DNA of 64,000 nt from Escherichia phage vB_EcoS_VAH1: sequence record MK373792.1. The stretch is one strand, 5' to 3'. Below the pieces are notes generated by a model. The model saw nothing but the letters and a program-made list of their open reading frames with translations, was not told the origin of the DNA and did not search any database. This document shows, piece after piece, positions 888 to 55,379 of the stretch (position 1 is the first letter of the stretch; every line of letters begins with the position of its first letter). Position numbers and translations under genes: made by a program.

Positions 888-1268
888 TTATTCCTCCTCT
901 TCGAGATTGGTATTGGGATCGTAAATTTTCTTGGCTCCTGTATTTAGGAATCGCTCTGCAAGTTGTGGGTGAATATCAAAGAACTCTGTGCATCCTTCGA
1001 ATCCCTTTAAATTACAGCGGTATTTCTTAAAGTAGATATGAGCAGCGGCTTCTAGATCTCTAGGATTATGGGTTTCATAAATCCCATACACGTATAAATC
1101 GTCAAAACCTCGATAGACTATCTTATCTAAGTTTAGTGTTTGAATCCTATTATGTGGATTCATACTGATACCGATCTTTGTTCTTTTAGGGATCTTCGTC
1201 AGATCCCTATTTGCAAGAATATATACTTTATATAGTGACATTCTTTCTAGCCTTGAGTTTGATACCAA
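888..1268 (-). CDS. T5orf172 (GIY-YIG-like) domain protein
   Basis: YKVYILANRD...KIGIS...GCTEFFDI pattern, shared with 14690..15301 and 46060..46731 C-termini. Confidence 0.5.
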   Translation of the reverse strand: MVSNSRLERMSLYKVYILANRDLTKIPKRTKIGISMNPHNRIQTLNLDKIVYRGFDDLYVYGIYETHNPRDLEAAAHIYFKKYRCNLKGFEGCTEFFDIHPQLAERFLNTGAKKIYDPNTNLEEEE

Positions 1269-1340: not shown

Positions 1341-1946
1341 TCACGTACCTCTCTTATATTCTGGCTCTAGATTAATAATCGTAGTACTTGGCAATCCTAG
1401 CGAATTACATAATGATTTGAATGTTTCTTTATCTCTATGAATCGCATAGTGAATGGCTTTCTCCATTGGAGTTAACTCTAGATCTTTGGTAATGGCTACA
1501 TGCAAACTCGCTATAGTCATGCCAATCCCACGATACGTTTCTTCTTTATTAAGGGAAGGTCTCTGTTTTTCTAGCTCAGGAAGATGTGCAAATTCTCCCT
1601 TCTTTCTAGGAATCTTATCATCACTAAGTAATGCTGTTAAGAAATCTGTTTCTTCATAGGCTGGGAGCACTTCATCAATTAATACTAGAATAGAGCTAGC
1701 ATTGATACCTTTCGCACTAGGATCTAAAGATTTTAATGCTTTATTAGTTTCAACGTAGGAGCCTGCTAACACAACTTTTGAGCTATTCCGATCATATTTA
1801 ATTTTATTCGCTTCCCAACGCGCAGGACGATAATCAGATAGAAACATTACCGCATACTTTTGTTCATCTGTTAGCTCGGAGAAACATTTCTGGTTTGATT
1901 CTTTTGCTAGCGCAATAAGGTGCTTTAGTTTTTCTGCTTTATTCAT
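1341..1946 (-). CDS. hypothetical protein
   Basis: 201-aa ORF, balanced composition, in minus-strand gene string. Confidence 0.45.
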   Translation of the reverse strand: MNKAEKLKHLIALAKESNQKCFSELTDEQKYAVMFLSDYRPARWEANKIKYDRNSSKVVLAGSYVETNKALKSLDPSAKGINASSILVLIDEVLPAYEETDFLTALLSDDKIPRKKGEFAHLPELEKQRPSLNKEETYRGIGMTIASLHVAITKDLELTPMEKAIHYAIHRDKETFKSLCNSLGLPSTTIINLEPEYKRGT

Positions 1947-1948
1947 TG

Positions 1949-2338
1949 TTAGACCTCCTGAGCTTTATCTTCTGTATAGAAATCTTCGGTAGCTTGATAA
2001 TGTAATGTAAAGAATTCAAAAGACAGGCAATCTGATGCTGTATTTTGAATGTATCTTAATTCATTAATAAAGGATTCTTTGAAGATCTTACGGTTAGGTT
2101 TTAGTTCTATCAGTTGGTTAATAAGCTCATCGATTAATTCTATTGCATCATCTATATACTCATCCATAAATACTGGGGATTCATAGATTATTTCTTCAAC
2201 TCCGTTAGTAACTAAAGCGACTACAATTACCTCTCCCGTAGTTTCTTCAGGGTAAAGATAACCTGAATCTACTTTACGAACAGTAACGCGAGTTTGGCTA
2301 GTAATTTGACGATTTATAGCAATAATATAATGTAACAT
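1949..2338 (-). CDS. hypothetical acidic protein
   Basis: 129-aa ORF abutting the upstream gene. Confidence 0.45.
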   Translation of the reverse strand: MLHYIIAINRQITSQTRVTVRKVDSGYLYPEETTGEVIVVALVTNGVEEIIYESPVFMDEYIDDAIELIDELINQLIELKPNRKIFKESFINELRYIQNTASDCLSFEFFTLHYQATEDFYTEDKAQEV

Positions 2339-14689: not shown

Positions 14690-15301
14690 CTAAAACCCCA
14701 CATAACTGCATCTTTTATTTTTATAGATACTATGTAGGTCAGCTTCGATCTTAGCTGTTTCTTCCTTAGAACCCTTGCCACAAATATAGTAAGATGATAC
14801 TCTCAGGTCTTTAAAACCACTACAAGACTTAACTTCTAGAAGTCTTTTCTGCACATTCTTACTTATACCTATTTTTATGCCCTTATCGGAAACAAATATG
14901 TATAAAAATCCTTGTGTATCCCAAGCTGTTTTGGCACAATTTGGGCACCCACTATGGTGTAAAACGTGGTTAGTGGTTGTTTCCCACTGATGGGAACATG
15001 TATTACATAAAAACTTTAGCTTAGAAGTAGAATTAGTATATTCACTTAGTAATACGATTTTTCTAGGACTGAGGAGTGAGTTAATCCTGTCTTTGGTTAA
15101 CTTTTCATTGCCTGCACATTTTGGGCATCCTCTACCTTTATTTCTGACATTTGTAGGGGCTGTTAACCATGTATTAGAGCATATAAGACACTTAAATTGT
15201 GTCTTTGTCTTATTATGTTCATATTCCCCAACTAATCTTACTGTCCTACCTTGAGCTTCTAAGTCTTTATTAAAGATTTCTTTATTTATTTTTACGCTCA
15301 T
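14690..15301 (-). CDS. zinc-ribbon repeat + T5orf172 (GIY-YIG-like) protein
   Basis: Two CxxC...GCPxC ribbons then YIFVSDKGIKIGIS; same architecture as 46060..46731. Confidence 0.6.
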   Translation of the reverse strand: MSVKINKEIFNKDLEAQGRTVRLVGEYEHNKTKTQFKCLICSNTWLTAPTNVRNKGRGCPKCAGNEKLTKDRINSLLSPRKIVLLSEYTNSTSKLKFLCNTCSHQWETTTNHVLHHSGCPNCAKTAWDTQGFLYIFVSDKGIKIGISKNVQKRLLEVKSCSGFKDLRVSSYYICGKGSKEETAKIEADLHSIYKNKRCSYVGF

Positions 15302-42305: not shown

Positions 42306-44636
42306 TTAAATAGTACAACCACCGGATGCACAACCGGCTGCTTCTTCTCCAGCACCTCCACCATTTGCGGTATTGAAGTTAGCATAATACCAAGTTTTCC
42401 ACCCATACTTAACAGCAGTCATGAAATCACGAACTACTACTGGGCCAGGAATTATTTCATTCTCAAACTTGGTGTAGTCATAGTACATATTCGTACTGAT
42501 AGACTGACTGAAGAATTTCTGCATAGTTGCTACCCACTTGATCCACTCGATACGATCTACATCATAAGCCAGTTTATAGCTCATTAACGTTTCCCAATCG
42601 GTTGCACCCGGAGCAATTGCAATTACTTTATTAACTGCACTACCCTTGATAGATACAATCTTACGAGGTGGTTCGATAGAGTTAGTAACGCCTAGCAGAA
42701 CAGAAGAGCTTTCTCCTGGCATCTGAGCAGTCAGAACAGAGTTCCGCATACCATATTTCAGAATATCTGCACGCAGAGACTCCCAATCCATTTCTAGACC
42801 TACGGATACCAGTTCATCAACAGTTTTCTTGTACGTGTCGATTACCAGAATTCCTTTAGATGGTTTAGTACGATCAAACCACTCACATGCACCCTGTTCT
42901 CTAGCTAGGCGTACAGAGGCTTTATGCAGGAAGTAGGACAGTTTTTCAGCCTCACGGTGAATCCAGTTACGGGCTTCAATACCTTCGTAAGCCAGACCTT
43001 CTGCTGCCATTGCACCTGCTGCGTTCATTAGGCCAATACCAACATTACGACGTTTCTTAGCTGTGTATTCCATAGTTGGGAACGGATAATCCTGAATTTC
43101 AATGATGGTATCAACGAATTTCAGAAGAATATAGCAAGTCTTTTCCCACTCAGCTAGAGATTCCATGCGTCCAAGTACAACACCACCTAAGTTACACAGA
43201 GATACTTCACCAATATCCTCCGGCTTCATTTGATCAAGCTGCTCTTTTGTCTTATACAGCTCTGTGATATGATGGAACGGGCGTGTAGGCTGAGTAATTT
43301 CAACACAAAGGTTTGTCATACGGATCGGATCAAGGAAATTACCATGACGATTAGATTCCCCAATGTGATGAGCATACATACGTCCTGTTTCCATTCGGAT
43401 ACGTAGCCAAGTATCTAGGATTTCTTTTGCAGAGACTTTAGGAGCTGCTGGAACTGTTTTTCCTTCGTGGTCGATCTTTGTAAGAGATGCCACACGTTTC
43501 TCCGCTGCCACATAGATTTCTTCAAATTTAGCCTCGTCATCACTATAAAACGCTTCATGAACTTCTGGAGCATAGAAGTATGACATTAGCGTAATATCTT
43601 CATTTTTCAGATAACGTTTTAACAAAAGATTGTTGAAGCTCAGAGAATAATCCATCTTATCGATTTTATTCTCATCTGTAGCACGTTGTTGCTTAACCTG
43701 CATCAATTGAATGATTTCAGGGTCAAAGTATGGATAAGACACTGTAGCAGAACCACCACGAGTTTGCTGAGTATTGGCCTTTACTGAGCGGTCAATGTGT
43801 CGATAATATGGCAGTTTTCCGGAATGCGGGAATGCCCCATTTCGCACCGGATCAGCAATTGATCTGCTTTCAAGATGATACCCGATTCCCGCTCTGGCTG
43901 CGACCATTTTGAAGACGATGTGCTCGGCGGTGTCGATTGAATCCAACGTGTCAGTGGAATCCACGAGGCAGCAACTAGCAAATCCACGGTCACTAGAGCG
44001 CAGGCCAACCAGTGGCGGCGTAGGAACGTTGATTTTGTGGAGTGACATTGCGTTGTAGAGGTCGATTGCATCTAGAATTGTCCAGTTAGGTTGAGATAGC
44101 ATCGCCATTGCCATACCCATGTAGGCAAACTGCGGAGTTTCATAAATTTCACCAGTGGCTATGTTACGCCGGGAATACTTATCAAAGAACTGCTTCAGTC
44201 CACCACTAGTAAAAAGACGGTCACGATCATGGTCGATAACCTGATTCAGAGCTTCAAATTGCTCATCGGTAATCCATGCACTCATGTCTTCCCATGCACC
44301 TACGCTAACCATATGGTCGTGGAAGAAGCGCAGAGAAGGCGGTTCGAAAGAGTCATAAAGGCGTTTACGCATTTGCGCAAGACGTAATTCCTTTGCTGGC
44401 ACATCGTATGCTGGGTTATCTTTGATAAGACTTTCAGCAGCTTTAATTAATGCGTCCATCAGAGTGTCGGAATCTACAACCCCTTTAGGTAGAGTTTTTT
44501 GAGCAGCCATAGTAATGGCTGACCAACTTACATCAACTGTTTTGCAACCATACTCTGCCCAACCATTGAGTTTTTCAGGAGCAAAGTCTTCTACAGTACC
44601 GTCACGTTTAATTACTTTTTCAATGCGATGGCTCAT
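42306..44636 (-). CDS. nrdA: ribonucleotide reductase class Ia large subunit (start trimmed to MSHRIEKV; track ORF extends to 44741)
   Basis: ATP-cone N-terminus; FEPPSLRFF, SSCCLVD, NLCVEI, C-terminal Cys pair; colinear with E. coli NrdA. Confidence 0.9.
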   Translation of the reverse strand: MSHRIEKVIKRDGTVEDFAPEKLNGWAEYGCKTVDVSWSAITMAAQKTLPKGVVDSDTLMDALIKAAESLIKDNPAYDVPAKELRLAQMRKRLYDSFEPPSLRFFHDHMVSVGAWEDMSAWITDEQFEALNQVIDHDRDRLFTSGGLKQFFDKYSRRNIATGEIYETPQFAYMGMAMAMLSQPNWTILDAIDLYNAMSLHKINVPTPPLVGLRSSDRGFASCCLVDSTDTLDSIDTAEHIVFKMVAARAGIGYHLESRSIADPVRNGAFPHSGKLPYYRHIDRSVKANTQQTRGGSATVSYPYFDPEIIQLMQVKQQRATDENKIDKMDYSLSFNNLLLKRYLKNEDITLMSYFYAPEVHEAFYSDDEAKFEEIYVAAEKRVASLTKIDHEGKTVPAAPKVSAKEILDTWLRIRMETGRMYAHHIGESNRHGNFLDPIRMTNLCVEITQPTRPFHHITELYKTKEQLDQMKPEDIGEVSLCNLGGVVLGRMESLAEWEKTCYILLKFVDTIIEIQDYPFPTMEYTAKKRRNVGIGLMNAAGAMAAEGLAYEGIEARNWIHREAEKLSYFLHKASVRLAREQGACEWFDRTKPSKGILVIDTYKKTVDELVSVGLEMDWESLRADILKYGMRNSVLTAQMPGESSSVLLGVTNSIEPPRKIVSIKGSAVNKVIAIAPGATDWETLMSYKLAYDVDRIEWIKWVATMQKFFSQSISTNMYYDYTKFENEIIPGPVVVRDFMTAVKYGWKTWYYANFNTANGGGAGEEAAGCASGGCTI

Positions 44637-44780
44637 TTGGCTTTCCTTTTTATAGTTATCAGGATTTAAGGAATATTCTACTTTATTATTGGTCATTAGG
44701 CAAATAAAATTTTCTGATAGAAAAGGCCCGAGTATTTTCATACCCAGGCCCTGTATATTACCAGTCTAGTTTTTGGCCAC

Positions 44781-44978
44781 TTAAGTTCTCAGCAGAATAT
44801 CTATTGAGGTACTTAGTTCATTATAATTGAAGGGCCGATTTGGATTTGAGGTTACAATTTTCCACGCTAGGGTAGTCTTAGGACTTTCTTCCCCTTCCTT
44901 ACGTGTAATCATATTAGCAGCACTCAGTGAAGTACGATGTATTTTAGTTTTACGGTGTAGATGTACGACGTTTCCCAT
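44781..44978 (-). CDS. small basic protein (start trimmed to MGNVVHL)
   Basis: GGAAGG RBS then ATG just after phoH stop. Confidence 0.3.
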   Translation of the reverse strand: MGNVVHLHRKTKIHRTSLSAANMITRKEGEESPKTTLAWKIVTSNPNRPFNYNELSTSIDILLRT

Positions 44979-44979
44979 A

Positions 44980-45741
44980 TTACACCTTCCCCATGTCTTT
45001 AAAAATATCGTAGAATGCTTTAGACTCAGCAGAACGAACGTTATCAATCAATTCGATCATTGAGAATGGAGCATTTTCATATTTCTCATAAACTTCCATA
45101 AGAAGTGCTAGACCTGAGTCACCTTTAATGTCTTTCTGAGCTATATCTCCGCAGATAATTAAACGGCAGTCTTGTCCTACACGAGTTAGGAGACAAACCA
45201 TTGCCTCAACGGAAATATTCTGAGCTTCATCGACAATTACATAGGAGTTGTTGAAAGTTCTGCCACGAGCATGTTCTATAGCCAAAAATTTAATTTTCTG
45301 ACGTTCGACATATCCCTTATATGCATGATCACCGATGGCCCATTTCATACCATCAGCTATTGGCTCTAACCAAGGCTCTAGCTTTTCTGCTAGATCACCA
45401 GGAAGCATACCAAGAGACTTACCTAGAGGTTCATTAGGACGTACGAGAATTACTTGCTCAATATCTGAGTGAATGTCTACGAGTTCCTGAGCTGCAAGAA
45501 CAGACGGGATAAAGGTTTTACCAGTACCTGGCTCTCCGATACCCACAGTCACTGTGTTGTTCTTGATCATATTGATATATGATTTTTGCTCGCGGTTTTT
45601 ACCTACTAGGGATTTAGCAACTGGATTAGCGTAATCATTAGAAAAATCAGCCTGAATTACGTTATTCTCATATTTGTTGCCACGCTTTCTTGAACCATTG
45701 CGGTTCTCTCTTTTTTGACGTGCTTTTCCCATAAATAACAC
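44980..45741 (-). CDS. phoH: PhoH-like ATPase
   Basis: Walker A GEPGTGKTF, Walker B VIVDEAQN, typical PhoH core. Confidence 0.85.
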   Translation of the reverse strand: MLFMGKARQKRENRNGSRKRGNKYENNVIQADFSNDYANPVAKSLVGKNREQKSYINMIKNNTVTVGIGEPGTGKTFIPSVLAAQELVDIHSDIEQVILVRPNEPLGKSLGMLPGDLAEKLEPWLEPIADGMKWAIGDHAYKGYVERQKIKFLAIEHARGRTFNNSYVIVDEAQNISVEAMVCLLTRVGQDCRLIICGDIAQKDIKGDSGLALLMEVYEKYENAPFSMIELIDNVRSAESKAFYDIFKDMGKV

Positions 45742-45945
45742 TCCTATAGTGTACTTCGCTTCTAACAGAGGATCAACAAAGAGATCTTGTTTATCAACTT
45801 ACAAATATATTATAACAAGGTTTACAGCAAAAAGCAAGTATAATTTTAAATAAACCTATGATATTGCTTTTAAGTAAAAAATTTACTTGCTTATAAAGGT
45901 AGAAATATGATACTAGATAATCATTTATTTATATGTAAAAATACT

Positions 45946-45959
45946 ATGCTGTATAGCAT
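45946..45959. promoter_or_regulatory. perfect 14-bp palindrome ATGCTGTATAGCAT in the divergent control region
   Basis: Self-complementary; lies between leftward and rightward promoters. Confidence 0.4.
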
Positions 45960-46009
45960 CAATAAAAATTGATAAAAATCAAAAGTCAAATAGTATTAGA
46001 AAAATGTAG

Positions 46010-46038
46010 TTGACGTATGGGGTGGAATTATGTATAAT
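46010..46038 (+). promoter_or_regulatory. sigma70 promoter for the rightward gene block
   Basis: TTGACG - 17 nt - TATAAT; GGGAG RBS before ATG at 46060. Confidence 0.55.
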
Positions 46039-46059
46039 ATGTGAATTAGGGAGAATTTA

Positions 46060-46731
46060 ATGGTAAGAAAGAAAATAACTACAGAAGATGTGAACTTAGC
46101 ACTTGCTCCCAGAGGAATAATTATGCTAAGCACGTATATATCAGCTAAATCCAATGCTATATTTAAGTGCTCTAATGGGCATAGTTGGGAGGCTAGAGTA
46201 GATAATGTAAAAGGTGGGAGAGGTTGCCCTTATTGTGCTAGTCGTACTTTAGATCTTAAAGAGGTAAATGAATCCTTAGCTGCTCGTGGAATAAAGATGG
46301 AAGGTAAATACATCAATTCTAAGAGTAAAATTATGTTCAGCTGTGAGAATAATCATAGGTGGGAGTCTACACTTGATAGTGTTAGAAACCATAGTTCTGG
46401 TTGTCCTATATGTTTATTAGAGAAGGATAATTATCCTACTAACGTATATATTTTAATAAGTAATGTGGGAACCAAAATAGGAGTGTCTAGCAGAACTAAA
46501 GATAGACTCAGAGATATTAAAACTTCTTCTAACATACATGATTTAAAAATATTTAAGGAATATAGCTTTTCAGATAGATCAAAAGCTATACGTATTGAAA
46601 GAGAGGTCCATTTACAGTTTAAGGAATATAATTGTCAGTACAAAGATTTTGATGGTGCTACAGAATTTTTTAATATTGAGCCAGAAGTAGTAGCAAGGTT
46701 TATTGAGGAAATAATTAATGACAGAGAATGA
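46060..46731 (+). CDS. zinc-ribbon repeat + T5orf172 (GIY-YIG-like) protein
   Basis: CSNGHSWE...GCPYCA and CENNHRWE...GCPIC ribbons; C-terminus matches 888..1268 and 14690..15301. Confidence 0.6.
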   Translation: MVRKKITTEDVNLALAPRGIIMLSTYISAKSNAIFKCSNGHSWEARVDNVKGGRGCPYCASRTLDLKEVNESLAARGIKMEGKYINSKSKIMFSCENNHRWESTLDSVRNHSSGCPICLLEKDNYPTNVYILISNVGTKIGVSSRTKDRLRDIKTSSNIHDLKIFKEYSFSDRSKAIRIEREVHLQFKEYNCQYKDFDGATEFFNIEPEVVARFIEEIINDRE

Positions 46732-48544
46732 ATTAATTGAGAATTGCAAAGGTCTGCTCACTCTAACTGCGGATAAGGACTTACAGCATAATAATGCTAA
46801 TAAGCCTAGTGAGATGTTCCATACTCAAAGAGACTTATTAGCTGGGGAAATTAACAAGTATTTAGTATCGCAAGAATTACCTAAACACCTGTTAGACGCA
46901 CATAATCTAGGTAAAATACACATTCATGACATGGACTACAGAGCACAAGGGTACACCAACTGTTGCTTAGTAGATCTAGGCGGTATGCTGAAAAATGGCA
47001 CTAAAATTGGTAACGCAAATATTGAAACTCCTAAATCCATAACTACTGCATGCGCGATTACTGCTCAGATTATTGCTCAAGTATCGGGTGCTCAGTATGG
47101 TGGCACTTCTATTGATCGTATCGATGAGGTTTTAGCCCCCTATGTCAGAAAGTCTTATGATAAGCACCTGGGTCGTGGTCTACGTTGGCTCAAGGATGAA
47201 AGGAAAGCTGCTGTATATGCTACTGAACTTACTGAAAAAGAGTGTTATGATGCATTCCAAGCCCTAGAGTATGAAACTAATTCATTATTTAACTCTAACG
47301 GACAGACTCCTTTTGTTACGCTTGGCTTTGGGCTAGGACAGGGGTGGGAGGAAAGGATGATTCAGAAAGCCATCCTCCAAAACCGTATTAAAGGTTTAGG
47401 TGCTGCTGAGTCAACCCCTATCTTCCCTAAACTAGTATTCTCAGTTAAAGAAGGGTTAAATAAAAATCCAGGCGATCCTAACTATGATATAAAACAGCTA
47501 GCACTTGAGTGTTCTGCTACCCGTATGTACCCGGACTATTTAAGTTACGAGAAAGTTGTAGCTGTTACTGGTGATTTTAAAGCACCTATGGGTTGTCGTA
47601 GTTTTTTATCCGCTATTCCTTCTGGGGAAACTGCCGGCCGTAATAATCTGGGTGTAGTGTCTATTAATCTACCTATGGTTGCTGCTGAGGCAGATGGGGT
47701 TTTTGAAGATTTCTGGGATATTCTGGACAAATATGTGGATGAGGCTTTTGAAGCTCATGATTTTTTCTTGGATAGACTTAAGAAAGTGAAGGCTAAACAA
47801 GCCCCTATTCTTTATATGCACGGTGGTTTTGGTGTGCGTTTAGATGGGGAAGAGTATGTATGGCCAATTTTTGAGGGTAGATCTTCTGTATCTCTTGGGT
47901 ATATTGGGGTCTATGAGATGTGCCAAATAATGTTTAGTTTACCGCAGACTCATAGGGACTGTATTGAATTTACAGAGGAAGTTCTTACTCACCTAAAAAA
48001 TCGTTGCGAAGTTAAAGCTAATGAGACTAATCTTGGGTTTAGCTTGTATGCTACTCCTAGTGAGTCTCTATGTAATCGCTTTAATAAACTACTGGAACGT
48101 AGGTTCCCTGAGTATTCTTGGCTAACAGATAAAGGCTATCTCACTAATAGTCATCATTTGGACGTAAGGGAGAAGGTAGCTCCGGATACTAAATTTGAGT
48201 ATGAAGCTCATTTCACCAAAATAGCTAATGGTGGTAATATATCGTTTGTGGAACTACCACAAATGAAAAAGTTCCATAAAGCTCTTGAATACGTAGTAGA
48301 TAAGGGATTAGAATGTAGCCATTATATTGGTGTTAATATACCAATTGATGAGTGCTTCAACTGTGGGTATATGGGTGAATCTGTTGCCTCTGAACGTGGG
48401 TTTGTATGTCCAAGTTGTGGGTCTGAAGAAATAGAGGTTACACGTAGGGTTTGCGGGTACCTGGGATCCCCGGGCAGTAGGCCTTTCAATTCTGGGAAAC
48501 AAAAAGAAGTGCTTGGTAGAGTAAAACACTTAAATCTTAAGTAA
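46718..48544 (+). CDS. nrdD: anaerobic ribonucleoside-triphosphate reductase (class III)
   Basis: C-terminal CFNCGY...CPSCGS zinc ribbon and RVCGY glycyl-radical motif. Confidence 0.88.
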   Translation: MTENELIENCKGLLTLTADKDLQHNNANKPSEMFHTQRDLLAGEINKYLVSQELPKHLLDAHNLGKIHIHDMDYRAQGYTNCCLVDLGGMLKNGTKIGNANIETPKSITTACAITAQIIAQVSGAQYGGTSIDRIDEVLAPYVRKSYDKHLGRGLRWLKDERKAAVYATELTEKECYDAFQALEYETNSLFNSNGQTPFVTLGFGLGQGWEERMIQKAILQNRIKGLGAAESTPIFPKLVFSVKEGLNKNPGDPNYDIKQLALECSATRMYPDYLSYEKVVAVTGDFKAPMGCRSFLSAIPSGETAGRNNLGVVSINLPMVAAEADGVFEDFWDILDKYVDEAFEAHDFFLDRLKKVKAKQAPILYMHGGFGVRLDGEEYVWPIFEGRSSVSLGYIGVYEMCQIMFSLPQTHRDCIEFTEEVLTHLKNRCEVKANETNLGFSLYATPSESLCNRFNKLLERRFPEYSWLTDKGYLTNSHHLDVREKVAPDTKFEYEAHFTKIANGGNISFVELPQMKKFHKALEYVVDKGLECSHYIGVNIPIDECFNCGYMGESVASERGFVCPSCGSEEIEVTRRVCGYLGSPGSRPFNSGKQKEVLGRVKHLNLK

Positions 48545-48550
48545 GCTAAT

Positions 48551-48590
48551 CAGCCGGGTTGCTAGTCGACCTGGCTTTTATTTTATTTGC
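48551..48590 (+). terminator. rho-independent terminator after nrdD
   Basis: AGCCGGG...CCTGGCT hairpin followed by TTTTATTTTATTT. Confidence 0.5.
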
Positions 48591-48615
48591 TTTCAGCCAA
48601 AAATTTATATATAAT
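48587..48615 (+). promoter_or_regulatory. T5-type early promoter (P_N25-like)
   Basis: TTGCTT - 17 nt - TATAAT, leader ...ATAAATTTGAGAGGAG before ATG 48644. Confidence 0.6.
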
Positions 48616-48643
48616 AGATTTATAAATTTGAGAGGAGAAAGCT

Positions 48644-48925
48644 ATGAGCGAATTGCTTCCTAAAGTAGATGTCTCCCATCTTGGGGAGCCTAGTGAAGAA
48701 CGTAAGGCTCTAGATTGGTTGGGCGGATTTGATTATCGTCGTGTTGTTGCAACATGGAATGATAAGAAAGTTAAGAAGTTTCGGGTACATTATGTAGGTA
48801 AAGACAAGTGGCTCTGGATTGATTATGAAGAATCGAAGGGGTCTACTAAGGCTGTGAAAATTTATCGTATGTATGGGTATTATTATGCTCACTGTGATAA
48901 GAATGAATTTACAGTACAGAACTAA
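48644..48925 (+). CDS. hypothetical protein
   Basis: 93-aa ORF behind promoter. Confidence 0.45.
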   Translation: MSELLPKVDVSHLGEPSEERKALDWLGGFDYRRVVATWNDKKVKKFRVHYVGKDKWLWIDYEESKGSTKAVKIYRMYGYYYAHCDKNEFTVQN

Positions 48926-52511: not shown

Positions 52512-55379
52512 TTGACAGTAACAGTTGTTCTATTCTTTCTGAATAGTCCTAAAGAAAACTTATTTCATTTCCAACACAGGAGTATTGTTGTGTTTTCAAT
52601 CCTACAAGGTCATGCAGGATTTCATCGCGATTTAGCCACGGGCAATTGGCGAGAAGTTAAAGCAGAAGACTATCTTTTTGCTAAAAGATTTTCCTCAAAG
52701 CATCCTGAAGGTAAACCAGCTTCAATGCCCTTCAAGTTTGATGTAATTGATGAAGTTGATCCTCAAACCCTAGTAGAAATGCTTCCTCTTATGAGACGTT
52801 TAACGTCTGACCCTCATATCGTTGCGGTACGAGGTCGATGTCTTGCACCTAAAAATAATGTGCGACGTAAGAAGGGCAACTTTAATGTATCTAACCCAAG
52901 TCATATAATTGCAATGGACGTGGATGGTATTGTAGATACAGGTGGTTGTAACAAGTTTGATCTTGTTGGCATGGCTCGACACATTATTAGAATGTTAAAT
53001 AGTATTAGTGAGGATATGTTTCCTCTTGATGCAGGGTTTATCGCTCATGCATCGTCTTCGGCTGGGCTAAAACCAGGTATCCGAATGCACTTAATACTAG
53101 AATCTAATGTTAAAGTAACTCAGGGTCAAATCAAGTTCTTATTTACATCTATCAATGAAAGTAGTAGACAAAAGTATGGCTTTGATATTGCCGACTTAGC
53201 TTATTACTCTTCCGTACAGCTCCATTACTTTGCAGATCCTTTATTTATTGATGGTATAGTCGATCCGTTTAAAGCGGAGGGTGCTTCACGTCTGGTATTT
53301 GTTAAAGGCTCAAAAGTAAATTTACCTAATAATCTAGTTGACTATGAAACAACTAGAGGAGAGTTTAAAGAGGAATTCTACTCTTTACTCGATCAAATTA
53401 AAGGTAAAAAAGCTGCCTCTGATAAAGTAGAAGAAACTATCAGCGAACTAGAAGAAGCTGAGGATGGAGTGTATCTACGTATTATTCCTAAACTCTATCA
53501 CAGGGCTTTAGAGGATGGTGTTGATTTTGCATGGCTAGAAAAAGAAATCCGTCCAGCCTTATCAGAATATATTGCAACTAAAGATAATAGTCGTAATATT
53601 CAAGACTACTTTAATAACGGTCGTAAACAGGCTCTAAAAGCGTTTGTTAATAATTCTAAGCGTGAGATCCCTGAAGTATTAAAAGGTATCCCCCTTAAAA
53701 AGCTAGAAACTAATTCACTAGAGACCGACAACTTCTTGAAATTAAATACTGTACCACCAGAAGGCTATATGACTTTTGTAAAAGCAAGTCTAGGCACAGG
53801 TAAAACCACGGCGGTTGTGCGTTGGTTAGATTCAGGGGTTATTAAAGGTAATTTCTTAGCAATTACCAATACTAGAGCACTGGTATCTTCAAATGCTAAG
53901 AAATTTAGTGCAGGACAATATGATAAGTCTGTAGATATGCTTAATTTTAAGCGTGGTGCTATTGACCGTATGTCCACAACTATTCACTCTTTGCATAAAT
54001 TCAAGAGTTTTATTGGTCAAATTGATGCAATCTTTATCGATGAATGTGATGCAGTAATGAATGACCTATTATTCGCCCCGGTTGTTAAGCAACGTCGTGA
54101 ATGTATTCAGGTTCTTCGGGATATTCTTGCAACTGCAAAAATCATTATATTATCTGATGGTGATATTAGTGCAGAAACAATTGAAGCATATGGTTCTTTG
54201 ATTGAGTTTGATAAACCGGTCGCATTTTATAATCATCATCGTAAGATGTTGTCAAAAGCTCATGCTTATGAGTTCCCTGATGAATCTAGTATTTGGGTTG
54301 CACTTCAAACATCACTAGAGATGGGTGAGAAATCTATTCTAGTATCTGATTGCGGCCCAGATGAGCTGAATGAGAAAGGTATGGCATTACGTCGTAATAC
54401 GGGTGCATTAGTTAAAGAAATCCATTCAAACTCTACATCTGATGTGGATATTAGACGTATTCTGGATTACACAACTAATGAGCTAATTGATCAACAAATT
54501 GATTGCTTATTATGTAGTCCATCCGTAACGAGTGGTGTTGACTTCAACTATTTTGATAACGTATTCGTTATTACTAGAACCAGTAACCAGGCGCCGAACA
54601 TGCGTTTTCAAGCAATCAGGCGCGACCGTGGTGCTCAGAATATCTATTATTTTATTGATAAATCCACTAGTGGATTCTCCGCAGGTTCTGAGCAATATAA
54701 CATTGATGAAGGTTGGCTCGAATTAGCACAGCAGTTATATGCACGTCGTAGGGAATTAGAGTCTAGGAACTATACTAGTACCTTACGCTATTACTTGCTT
54801 GATCAGGGAGCAACTATTGATATTTTCAGTGAAAGCTGGGGAACTATTGAAGGTGCTGGTAAAGAGTACACAGAAGAGCGAATCAAAGCTATTCTGCACT
54901 CAACTCCTGATTATTGTGCTCCACGTCATGCGGATGCGTATGAAGCTAAACTACTTCTTGTTCGCTATTATCATCTTGAGTCTATTAAAGATGTAACAGT
55001 TGAGCATGTTGAACAATATATCAAAGATAAGCCGAATGATCGAGCTGCATTCTTCCATAAGATGCACGAGATGTTCTGGGAAGATATTAAGAAGTGTTCA
55101 AATGTGACCATTAAACCATTCATAGAAGCTCTGAAAGGTAAGAAGAAGGACTTCTTCCTTAAAACAGGTCAGAGTGCTAACCCAAAATATGCTAGAATGT
55201 ATCTTGGTATGATGGGTATTGGTAAAGATATGAACACGGAGAATATCGTAGACTGGTACAGAACCTATTGTAAAATCGAATGTATGCCAATTCCTTTCAA
55301 ATTTATGACAGAGGAAGAGAAGGCTATGGCAGAAGAAGCAATGTCAGAGCTAGGTGCTAGAAATGACAGTGAAGAATAA
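52512..55379 (+). CDS. replication origin-binding-protein-like SF2 helicase (probable true start GTG ~52589 after AGGAG)
   Basis: Walker A ASLGTGKTT, Walker B IFIDECD, helicase motifs in C-half. Confidence 0.55.
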   Translation: MTVTVVLFFLNSPKENLFHFQHRSIVVFSILQGHAGFHRDLATGNWREVKAEDYLFAKRFSSKHPEGKPASMPFKFDVIDEVDPQTLVEMLPLMRRLTSDPHIVAVRGRCLAPKNNVRRKKGNFNVSNPSHIIAMDVDGIVDTGGCNKFDLVGMARHIIRMLNSISEDMFPLDAGFIAHASSSAGLKPGIRMHLILESNVKVTQGQIKFLFTSINESSRQKYGFDIADLAYYSSVQLHYFADPLFIDGIVDPFKAEGASRLVFVKGSKVNLPNNLVDYETTRGEFKEEFYSLLDQIKGKKAASDKVEETISELEEAEDGVYLRIIPKLYHRALEDGVDFAWLEKEIRPALSEYIATKDNSRNIQDYFNNGRKQALKAFVNNSKREIPEVLKGIPLKKLETNSLETDNFLKLNTVPPEGYMTFVKASLGTGKTTAVVRWLDSGVIKGNFLAITNTRALVSSNAKKFSAGQYDKSVDMLNFKRGAIDRMSTTIHSLHKFKSFIGQIDAIFIDECDAVMNDLLFAPVVKQRRECIQVLRDILATAKIIILSDGDISAETIEAYGSLIEFDKPVAFYNHHRKMLSKAHAYEFPDESSIWVALQTSLEMGEKSILVSDCGPDELNEKGMALRRNTGALVKEIHSNSTSDVDIRRILDYTTNELIDQQIDCLLCSPSVTSGVDFNYFDNVFVITRTSNQAPNMRFQAIRRDRGAQNIYYFIDKSTSGFSAGSEQYNIDEGWLELAQQLYARRRELESRNYTSTLRYYLLDQGATIDIFSESWGTIEGAGKEYTEERIKAILHSTPDYCAPRHADAYEAKLLLVRYYHLESIKDVTVEHVEQYIKDKPNDRAAFFHKMHEMFWEDIKKCSNVTIKPFIEALKGKKKDFFLKTGQSANPKYARMYLGMMGIGKDMNTENIVDWYRTYCKIECMPIPFKFMTEEEKAMAEEAMSELGARNDSEE

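What the first reader, a model, noticed from the sequence alone, without database searches (positions are those of the whole stretch)
45742..46059. Divergent control region with a perfect 14-bp palindrome
This is the switch between the leftward block (phoH, nrdAB and onward) and the rightward block. It contains a leftward cassette promoter (~45800), a rightward TTGACG-17-TATAAT promoter (46010-46038) and the self-complementary ATGCTGTATAGCAT (45946-45959) between them, a possible operator for a dimeric regulator.
Basis: seen in the sequence. Interest (0 to 1): 0.4.

Follow-up and report, generated by a model that had tools for sequence, protein, structure and literature searches.

The report
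T5-like phage divergent promoter region
This is the ordinary back-to-back promoter region between the phoH and nrdD gene blocks of a T5-like phage; the "perfect palindrome" is imperfect, no better than chance, and sits in a recently swapped-in segment that travels with a selfish endonuclease gene.

Summary
The window is a T5-like phage (Tequintavirus, 98.7% identical to ESCO40). The gene-orientation switch is real, and so are both promoters.

- **Leftward promoter:** TTGCTT-17-TATAAT (45837..45809, minus strand). It is one of 23 copies of the phage's recurrent early promoter, matches a promoter annotated in T5, and is conserved in other genera of the family (Demerecviridae).
- **Rightward promoter:** TTGACG-17-TATAAT (46010-46038). 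Every relative examined has a near-consensus counterpart. Here it drives a T5orf172-type homing-endonuclease gene (46060-46731) that overlaps nrdD.
- **The 14-mer ATGCTGTATAGCAT (45946-45959) is not a perfect palindrome.** It has 5-bp arms around a non-symmetric GTAT centre, so 6 of 7 pairs match. In shuffles of the region, 71% contain at least one equally good palindrome.
  - It is unique in the 64 kb window.
  - It lies 50 bp upstream of the -35 box.
  - It folds weakly (-3.4 kcal/mol).
  - It exists in only 20 near-identical phage records, always with this endonuclease allele.
  - In phage AZ21 two uncompensated substitutions break it.

About 420 of 440 relatives share only the left 185 bp. 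The right part belongs to a roughly 3 kb endonuclease plus nrdD-allele exchange module. There is no evidence for an operator. The finding is ordinary and largely already annotated in T5.

The parts
44980..45732 (-). phoH coding sequence, first gene of the leftward block. The likely start is the ATG at 45732, not the GTG at 45741.
   Evidence: Pfam PhoH, E = 1e-61. Relatives annotate a 753-nt CDS. GGAG lies 8 nt upstream of the ATG.
45733..45802 (-). Inferred phoH 5' untranslated leader, about 70 nt, including the Shine-Dalgarno GGAG at 45744..45741.
   Evidence: Position inferred from the -10 box. The fold is not better than shuffles, z = +0.37.
45809..45846 (-). Leftward early promoter of the T5 'cassette' type: upstream A/T module AAATTATAC, -35 TTGCTT (45837..45832), 17-nt spacer, -10 TATAAT (45814..45809).
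   Evidence: One of 23 TTGCT-N17-TAWAAT sites against 0.7 expected. The upstream/-35 motif is found 18 times against 1.4 expected. It lies inside the stretch equivalent to the T5-annotated promoter 53638-53712. It is conserved in Sugarland and DU_PP_V.
45878..45916 (+). Rightward promoter-like module, back to back with the leftward one. AAAATTTAC-TTGCTT (-35 at 45887-45892) is followed by a weak -10: GATACT at 16 nt, or TGaTACTAG at 18 nt. Whether it is functional was not established.
   Evidence: Exact match to the upstream/-35 motif. It forms inverted repeat I1 with the leftward module. TTGCTT/TTGACT ... TGnTAYTAGATA(A/G)TCATTTATTTAT is conserved from T5 to DU_PP_V. It is not annotated as a promoter in T5.
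45926..45935 (.). Left homology breakpoint. Most relatives are similar up to 45926; relatives carrying the other endonuclease allele are similar up to 45933-45935.
   Evidence: BLAST coverage 1-185 of the query in most of 440 records. Window versus T5, SHSML-45 and HildyBeyeler. Alignments.
45946..45959 (.). The reported 14-mer ATGCTGTATAGCAT: an imperfect palindrome (5-bp arms, 4-nt centre). Most likely spacer DNA with no function.
46010..46038 (+). Near-consensus sigma-70 promoter TTGACG-17-TATAAT for the endonuclease-nrdD transcription unit. The start site is inferred near 46045. Shine-Dalgarno GGGAG is at 46049-46053.
   Evidence: 11 of 12 consensus positions. One of 4 TTGAC-N17-TAWAAT sites against 0.59 expected. 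Positional counterparts in all relatives. T5 annotates a promoter directly upstream of nrdD.
46060..46731 (+). Free-standing homing-endonuclease-like gene: two treble-clef zinc fingers, a CapR-homology domain and a T5orf172 (GIY-YIG superfamily) domain. It overlaps the nrdD start by 14 nt.
   Evidence: Pfam DUF4379 3e-14, CapR 1.9e-8, T5orf172 3.2e-11. This allele (at least 90% identity) is in only 20 phage records.
46718..48544 (+). nrdD, in the allele linked to the endonuclease. It is only 68.6% identical at DNA level to T5 nrdD, while the flanks are 92-97% identical.
   Evidence: Pfam NRDD 3e-157. N-terminal alignment shows two allele classes. Pairwise BLAST.

Best explanation
The region is the standard divergent early-promoter region of a T5-like phage, made of two halves with different histories.

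**Left half (45733 to about 45926).** This half is conserved. It carries the host sigma-70 early promoter that transcribes phoH and the nrdA/nrdB block leftward. Back to back with it is a second upstream/-35 module facing right, whose function is not established.

**Right half (about 45927-46059).** This half belongs to a roughly 3-kb exchangeable module made of a T5orf172-type homing-endonuclease gene and a divergent nrdD allele. Its near-consensus promoter TTGACG-17-TATAAT transcribes the endonuclease gene and, through a 14-nt overlap, nrdD.

**The 14-mer ATGCTGTATAGCAT.** It is an imperfect inverted repeat in the A/T-rich spacer of this module and most likely has no function.

**Shown versus inferred.**
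- Shown: the sequence motifs, their over-representation, their conservation, the breakpoints and the allele distribution.
- Inferred: promoter activity, transcription start sites, co-transcription of the endonuclease gene with nrdD, and mobility of the endonuclease gene.
For: - **Identity of the phage.** Tequintavirus, 98.7% identical to ESCO40; 547 related records.
- **Leftward promoter.** It is one of 23 TTGCT-N17-TAWAAT sites (0.7 expected). All sites left of 45.8 kb but one are on the minus strand, and all those to the right are on the plus strand. It is equivalent to a promoter annotated in T5. Its -35, -10 and AAAATT tract are kept in Sugarland and DU_PP_V.
- **Rightward promoter.** 11 of 12 consensus positions. 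TTGAC(A/G/T)-17-TATAAT precedes nrdD or the endonuclease gene in T5, FFH1, Sw2, gmork, SHSML-45, HildyBeyeler, DT571/2, Sugarland and DU_PP_V.
- **Mosaic structure.** About 420 of 440 records match only query positions 1-185. Segment 45927-46059 is found in exactly 20 records, the same number that carry an endonuclease at least 90% identical. Identity to T5 is 94.8% up to 45926, 68.6% across nrdD, and 87-97% again from about 48.9 kb.
- **Endonuclease gene.** Domain hits. T5orf172 endonuclease genes are frequent next to ribonucleotide reductase genes (33% of neighbourhoods surveyed) and at boundaries of genetic exchange (PMC10448857).
- **The 14-mer.** 2 mismatches to its own reverse complement. 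71% of shuffles contain an equal or better one. Single copy in 64 kb. Hairpin -3.4 kcal/mol, z = -1. AZ21 has G45956A and A45958G without compensation.
Against: - No transcription data were available, so promoter use and start sites are predictions.
- Among the 14 sequences carrying this segment, 13 keep the 14-mer intact. Only 16 of 163 columns vary at all, so this neither supports nor excludes constraint.
- The conserved rightward module (45878-45921) has no good -10 box and remains unexplained. If it is active, the 14-mer would lie at about +25 to +40 of its transcript.
- The endonuclease has sequence-specific DNA-binding domains, and relatives of it act as repressors (CapR, PMC8096241). 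A binding site in its own upstream region therefore cannot be excluded.
Confidence: 0.85

Rival explanations
1. The 14-mer is an operator for a dimeric regulator that coordinates the two divergent transcription units.
For: It has partial dyad symmetry (5-bp arms) and lies between the divergent units. It is intact in 13 of 14 sequences carrying this segment.
Against: - Imperfect and at chance level.
- Single copy in the window, and no second copy of the ATGCT-N4-AGCAT dyad with intact arms; the three one-mismatch matches are within chance expectation.
- It lies 50 bp upstream of the rightward -35 box and 108 bp upstream of the leftward -35 box, so it overlaps no core element.
- Absent from about 420 of 440 relatives that share the same leftward promoter and gene order.
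- Broken without compensation in AZ21.
- No regulator gene is adjacent.
Confidence: 0.03
2. The upstream segment that travels with the endonuclease gene, possibly including the 14-mer, contains a binding site through which the endonuclease represses its own promoter. I-TevI does this at its late promoter, and the domesticated relative CapR does it at a -35 box.
For: The protein has two treble-clef zinc fingers and a CapR-homology domain. CapR represses by binding at a -35 region, and I-TevI autorepression is cited in the same paper (PMC8096241). Segment 45927-46059 is strictly co-inherited with this endonuclease allele.
Against: - The precedents bind at or over the promoter core elements (the -35 region for CapR), not 50 bp upstream of them.
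- These endonucleases recognise long asymmetric sites as monomers (general knowledge), so a dyad is not expected.
- The paralogue at 14690-15301 sits inside an operon without its own upstream region, so no shared motif could be tested.
- Co-inheritance is equally explained by simple linkage.
Confidence: 0.05
3. The 14-mer acts as an RNA hairpin (terminator, processing site or 5' stabiliser) in a transcript from the conserved rightward module at 45878-45916.
For: A hairpin can form. Relatives without the endonuclease gene have a G+C-rich hairpin at a roughly similar position, just after the conserved block.
Against: - The hairpin is only -3.4 kcal/mol, z = -1, and 27 of 200 shuffles fold as well.
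- No T-run follows it, and the terminator scan does not report it.
- No Rfam family matches.
- Activity of the upstream promoter-like module is unproven.
Confidence: 0.03

Closest known systems
Phage T5 phoH-nrdD intergenic region (NC_005859, 53591-53960) with its three annotated promoters
   Same: Same gene neighbours and divergent orientation. The leftward promoter is the same sequence (94.8% identity up to window 45926). A TTGAC-17-TATAAT promoter lies immediately before the first rightward gene.
   Different: T5 has no endonuclease gene here. It has a second annotated leftward promoter and a G+C-rich hairpin where the window has the segment containing the 14-mer. Its nrdD is a different allele, 68.6% identical.
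T5 early sigma-70 promoters (TTGCTT -35 with an A/T-rich upstream tract)
   Same: The leftward promoter has TTGCTT, a 17-nt spacer, TATAAT and an AAAWTT upstream tract. It is one of 23 such sites in the window.
   Different: Nothing notable. The rightward promoter is of the plain TTGACA type, which is rarer in this window (4 sites).
Free-standing T5orf172 / GIY-YIG-superfamily homing-endonuclease genes next to ribonucleotide reductase genes (PMC10448857)
   Same: Domain content, patchy presence among near-identical phages, position beside an RNR gene, and coincidence with a boundary of sequence exchange.
   Different: Neither cleavage activity nor a target site was tested here. In this case the gene sits between a promoter and nrdD and overlaps the nrdD start.
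Operators of endonuclease-derived repressors (I-TevI autorepression; CapR of the phage satellite PLE, PMC8096241)
   Same: The endonuclease contains a CapR-homology domain.
   Different: Those sites lie at or over promoter core elements (the -35 region for CapR). The 14-mer lies 50 bp upstream of the -35 box, and no binding evidence exists.

Membership tests
T5-type early sigma-70 promoter (leftward, 45809-45846) | -35 TTGCTT, 17-nt spacer, -10 TATAAT | tested here: met
   TTGCTTTTTGCTGTAAACCTTGTTATAAT at 45809-45837, minus strand.
T5-type early sigma-70 promoter (leftward, 45809-45846) | A/T-rich upstream tract AAAWTT-N2-Y before the -35 box | tested here: met
   AAATTATACTTGCTT at 45832-45846, 1 mismatch. 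The motif occurs 18 times against 1.4 expected.
T5-type early sigma-70 promoter (leftward, 45809-45846) | Orientation matches downstream genes, and the promoter is conserved in relatives | tested here: met
   The strand of the 23 sites follows gene orientation. Annotated in T5. Conserved in Sugarland and DU_PP_V.
T5-type early sigma-70 promoter (leftward, 45809-45846) | Transcription actually initiates there | not testable with these tools
   No transcript data. The literature search found no T5 start-site map.
Consensus sigma-70 promoter (rightward, 46010-46038) | TTGACA-like -35, 17-nt spacer, TATAAT -10, upstream of a gene with a Shine-Dalgarno sequence | tested here: met
   11 of 12 consensus positions. 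GGGAG lies 6 nt before the ATG at 46060. Counterparts are present in all relatives.
Operator for a dimeric regulator | Dyad symmetry beyond chance | tested here: not met
   6 of 7 pairs. 71% of shuffles have at least one as good.
Operator for a dimeric regulator | Overlaps or abuts promoter core elements or the start site | tested here: not met
   It lies 50 bp upstream of the rightward -35 box and 108 bp upstream of the leftward -35 box.
Operator for a dimeric regulator | Conserved in relatives, or recurs at other regulated promoters | tested here: not met
   Single copy in 64 kb. Present in only 20 of about 440 records. Broken in AZ21.
Operator for a dimeric regulator | A cognate regulator binds it | not testable with these tools
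   Needs a gel shift or footprint.
Intrinsic terminator | Stable G+C-rich stem followed by a T-run | tested here: not met
   -3.4 kcal/mol with 2 G-C pairs, followed by CAATAAAAA. The scan does not report it.
Free-standing T5orf172 homing-endonuclease gene | T5orf172 / GIY-YIG-superfamily nuclease domain plus DNA-binding domains | tested here: met
   Pfam T5orf172 3.2e-11, DUF4379 3e-14, CapR 1.9e-8.
Free-standing T5orf172 homing-endonuclease gene | Sporadic presence or absence among close relatives at the same locus | tested here: met
   Three states of the locus: no endonuclease gene, another allele with 45-47% identity, or this allele. Degraded remnants occur in HildyBeyeler and DT571/2.
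Free-standing T5orf172 homing-endonuclease gene | Site-specific cleavage of the endonuclease-free allele, and homing | not testable with these tools
   Needs cleavage assays and mixed infections.

The most novel reading that the evidence does not exclude
The endonuclease, which carries a CapR-homology DNA-binding domain, binds within the 133-bp upstream segment that is always inherited with it (45927-46059). It would thereby tune its own promoter and, as a consequence, nrdD expression: an I-TevI/CapR-like autoregulatory circuit in a T5-like phage. The 14-mer would be at most part of that site.
Probability: 0.05. Interest if true: 0.45.

Novelty: already known. Interest (0 to 1): 0.12.

Why it matters
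It matters little.
- The divergent promoters of this region are already annotated in the T5 reference genome.
- The endonuclease plus nrdD exchange module fits the published pattern of T5orf172 endonuclease genes beside ribonucleotide reductase genes and at recombination boundaries.
- The useful outcome is negative. The 14-mer should not be pursued as an operator, and the first rightward gene should be labelled a homing-endonuclease gene that has placed itself between the nrdD promoter position and nrdD.

Tried and rejected
- **Rfam scan of 45500-46300 at E <= 10.** Only chance-level hits to eukaryotic or unrelated families.
- **Folding.** The 14-mer on both strands, the 79-nt segment around it, the phoH leader and the G+C hairpins of relatives were all folded. 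None is better than shuffles.
- **Search for more diverse carriers of the segment.** IMG/VR and metagenome scans with the endonuclease protein each returned one near-identical locus, so a stringent conservation test is impossible.
- **Shared upstream motif with the paralogous endonuclease genes in the window.** The paralogue at 14690-15301 overlaps the upstream ORF and has no promoter region of its own; the copy at 945-1181 is partial.
- **Literature searches.** None turned up a T5 transcription-start map or an origin assignment for this region.
- **Other promoter-like matches from the scan.** 45882-45911 (+), 45969-45996 (+) and 45939-45910 (-) each match 9 of 12 positions. The total of 4 is below the shuffle mean of 8.5, so they are treated as chance.

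Full report
**What the window is.** The 2.3 kb around the finding matches 547 phage records, all T5-like (Demerecviridae). The best is Escherichia phage vB_EcoS_ESCO40 at 98.7% identity. The flanking ORFs are:
- phoH, minus strand, 44980-45741 as listed (Pfam PhoH, E = 1e-61);
- a 223-aa ORF, plus strand, 46060-46731;
- nrdD, plus strand, 46718-48544 (Pfam NRDD, E = 3e-157).

ORFs of at least 120 aa are nearly all on the minus strand from about 32 kb to 45.7 kb and nearly all on the plus strand from 46.06 kb to 63 kb. Relatives annotate phoH as 753 nt. That places its start at the ATG at 45732, 8 nt downstream of a GGAG, so the true intergenic region is 45733-46059.

**Checking the observation.** The 14-mer ATGCTGTATAGCAT is at 45946-45959 as stated, but it is not self-complementary.
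- On the opposite strand it matches itself only with 2 mismatches, ATGCTATACAGCAT. It is a 5-bp inverted repeat (ATGCT/AGCAT) around a non-symmetric GTAT centre.
- The region is 75% A+T. In 2000 dinucleotide-preserving shuffles, a 14-mer with at least 6 of 7 complementary pairs occurs 1.29 times on average, and 71% of shuffles have at least one.
- The region contains better inverted repeats: ATCAAT-AAAA-ATTGAT at 45958-45973 and AAGTAAA-AAA-TTTACTT at 45872-45888. The total number of 5-bp-arm inverted repeats (12) is within expectation (7.3 +/- 3.4).
- The 14-mer and its arm pattern do not recur in the 64 kb beyond chance.
- As RNA or DNA it gives a -3.4 kcal/mol hairpin, z = -1. No T-run follows it, and the terminator scan does not report it.

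The rightward TTGACG-17-TATAAT at 46010-46038 is confirmed with 11 of 12 consensus positions.

**The leftward promoter.** The generic scan missed it because its -35 box is TTGCTT. On the minus strand the sequence is TTGCTT (45837..45832), a 17-nt spacer, then TATAAT (45814..45809).
- The pattern TTGCT-N17-19-TAWAAT occurs 23 times in the window against 0.7 expected. With one exception, sites left of 45.8 kb are on the minus strand and all sites to the right are on the plus strand.
- Its upstream tract plus -35 motif (AAAWTTNNYTTGCTT) occurs 18 times against 1.4 expected.
- In the T5 reference record the homologous stretch is annotated as a promoter (53638-53712).
- The -10 box, the TTGC of the -35 box and the AAAATT tract are retained in Klebsiella phage Sugarland and Pectobacterium phage DU_PP_V, which belong to other genera or subfamilies.

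**A second, rightward module in the conserved half.** An exact copy of the upstream/-35 motif faces right at 45878-45892. Together with the leftward module it forms the 23-nt inverted repeat found at 45832-45854 / 45870-45892. That repeat, not the 14-mer, is the real symmetry of the region.
- Its -10 box is poor: GATACT at a 16-nt spacing, or TGaTACTAG at 18 nt.
- The stretch TTGCTT/TTGACT ... TGnTAYTAGATA(A/G)TCATTTATTTAT is nevertheless conserved from T5 to DU_PP_V.
- T5 does not annotate it as a promoter.

I could not decide whether it is active.

**The right half is a different kind of DNA.** With the 318-bp region as query, 440 records match, but only 20 cover at least 80% of it. Nearly all the others stop at query position 185 (window 45926), and a few at 192-205. 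Alignments show three states of the locus.
- **State A (T5, FFH1, Sw2, gmork).** No endonuclease gene lies before nrdD. After the conserved block come a G+C-rich hairpin, a second leftward promoter (annotated in T5) and then TTGACA-17-TATAAT before nrdD.
- **State B (SHSML-45).** A different 287-aa endonuclease gene has its own TTGACA-17-TATAAT. HildyBeyeler and DT571/2 keep only a remnant of its 3' end.
- **State C (the window, ESCO40, NR01, PMBT26, AZ21 and others).** This is the state containing the 14-mer.

The state-C segment 45927-46059 is found in exactly 20 records. The same number of records encode an endonuclease at least 90% identical to this one; the next best are 45-47% identical.

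Against T5, identity is 94.8% up to 45926, only 68.6% across nrdD, and 87-97% again from about 48.9 kb. The NrdD N-termini fall into two allele classes that follow the presence of an endonuclease gene or its remnant. The 14-mer therefore lies 10-20 bp inside the left junction of a roughly 3-kb exchange module of endonuclease gene plus nrdD allele.

**The endonuclease gene.** The ORF has two treble-clef zinc-finger matches (DUF4379, 3e-14), a CapR-homology domain (1.9e-8) and a T5orf172 domain (3.2e-11). T5orf172 proteins are putative homing endonucleases of the GIY-YIG superfamily. They are often found beside ribonucleotide reductase genes (33% of neighbourhoods surveyed) and at boundaries of genetic exchange between phages (PMC10448857). 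This locus fits that description. The gene overlaps nrdD by 14 nt, and no promoter-like site was reported between them. I infer that nrdD is transcribed from the promoter at 46010-46038 together with the endonuclease gene.

**The rightward promoter is a conserved feature even though its sequence context is not.** TTGAC(A/G/T)-17-TATAAT lies 20-30 nt before the first rightward start codon in every relative inspected. This holds for all three states and for Sugarland and DU_PP_V, and T5 annotates a promoter at that place. The window has only four TTGAC-N17-TAWAAT sites, against 0.59 expected.

**Is the 14-mer conserved?** Among 14 state-C sequences, 13 keep it. AZ21 has G45956A and A45958G, both in the right arm and uncompensated. 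Only 16 of 163 columns vary in this set, and 2 of them fall inside the 14-mer. There is therefore no sign of constraint, and the sample is too shallow to say more. Scans of IMG/VR and of metagenomes added no diversity.

**Position argues against an operator.** The 14-mer ends 50 bp upstream of the rightward -35 box and begins 108 bp upstream of the leftward -35 box, so it overlaps no core promoter element. The paralogous endonuclease gene at 14690-15301 lies inside an operon with no upstream region of its own, so no shared motif could be sought.

**The one reading I cannot exclude.** The endonuclease might bind somewhere in its co-inherited upstream segment and autoregulate. I-TevI does this, and CapR, a domesticated relative that represses by binding at a -35 region, shows the domain can act this way (PMC8096241). 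There is no positive evidence for it here, and the 14-mer is poorly placed for it.

**Verdict.** The divergent promoter region is real, ordinary and essentially already annotated in T5. The "perfect palindrome" is neither perfect nor beyond chance, and it belongs to a young, low-diversity segment linked to a selfish endonuclease gene. Interest is low.

Noticed in passing
window 44000-48000: GC skew changes sign exactly here: -0.04 in 44-46 kb and +0.19 in 46-48 kb. The cumulative skew of the whole window has its minimum here. The strand switch of the genes may be enough to explain it. Whether a replication origin coincides was not tested, and a literature search gave nothing.
   Followed up: partly
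window 45878-45935: A rightward upstream/-35 promoter module and the following TGnTAYTAGATAATCATTTATTTAT are conserved from T5 to Pectobacterium phage DU_PP_V, although there is no good -10 box and T5 carries no annotation for it. Its function is unknown.
   Followed up: partly
L003 (T5) 2783-2851; L014 (Sw2) about 1685-1725; L016 (DU_PP_V) about 2960-2985: Relatives without the endonuclease gene carry a G+C-rich inverted repeat (for example ATCGCG...CGTGAT) and a second leftward T5-type promoter at the place where the window has the 14-mer segment. The folds are not better than shuffles.
   Followed up: partly
window 46718-48925: nrdD exists as two alleles among otherwise 92-97% identical phages: 68.6% DNA identity to T5, with N-termini of different length. 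The allele in this window always comes with an endonuclease gene or its remnant upstream, and it resembles Klebsiella phage Sugarland NrdD more than T5 NrdD.
   Followed up: partly
L001 (HildyBeyeler) 1700-1980; L010 (DT571/2) 1700-1900: These loci hold degraded remnants of the endonuclease gene. The last 40 or so codons are retained in front of nrdD, behind an intact TTGACA-17-TATAAT promoter.
   Followed up: yes
window 14690-15301 (-) and 945-1181 (-): Two further T5orf172-type endonuclease paralogues: 34% identity over most of the length (with an apparent frame break near 14693), and a partial copy with 32% identity.
   Followed up: partly
L012 (gmork) 1677-2168 (-): Salmonella phage gmork has an extra leftward 163-aa ORF inserted into the same intergenic region, immediately after the conserved block. 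The ORF was not characterised.
   Followed up: no
window 45707-45718 / 45773-45784: A 12-nt inverted repeat, 92% complementary, pairs the phoH leader with codons 5-9 and encloses the ribosome-binding site in the predicted fold. The overall fold is no better than shuffles, z = +0.37.
   Followed up: partly
window, whole: There are 23 copies of TTGCT-N17-TAWAAT (0.7 expected), many with a similar spacer such as AAATGCTTAAATTTCTG. They form a strongly stereotyped early-promoter family whose strand tracks gene orientation.
   Followed up: partly
L006 (PMBT26) 1208-1312: The PMBT26 record annotates a 34-aa 'hypothetical protein' on the plus strand inside the conserved half of this intergenic region, overlapping the leftward promoter. 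It is probably an over-call.
   Followed up: no
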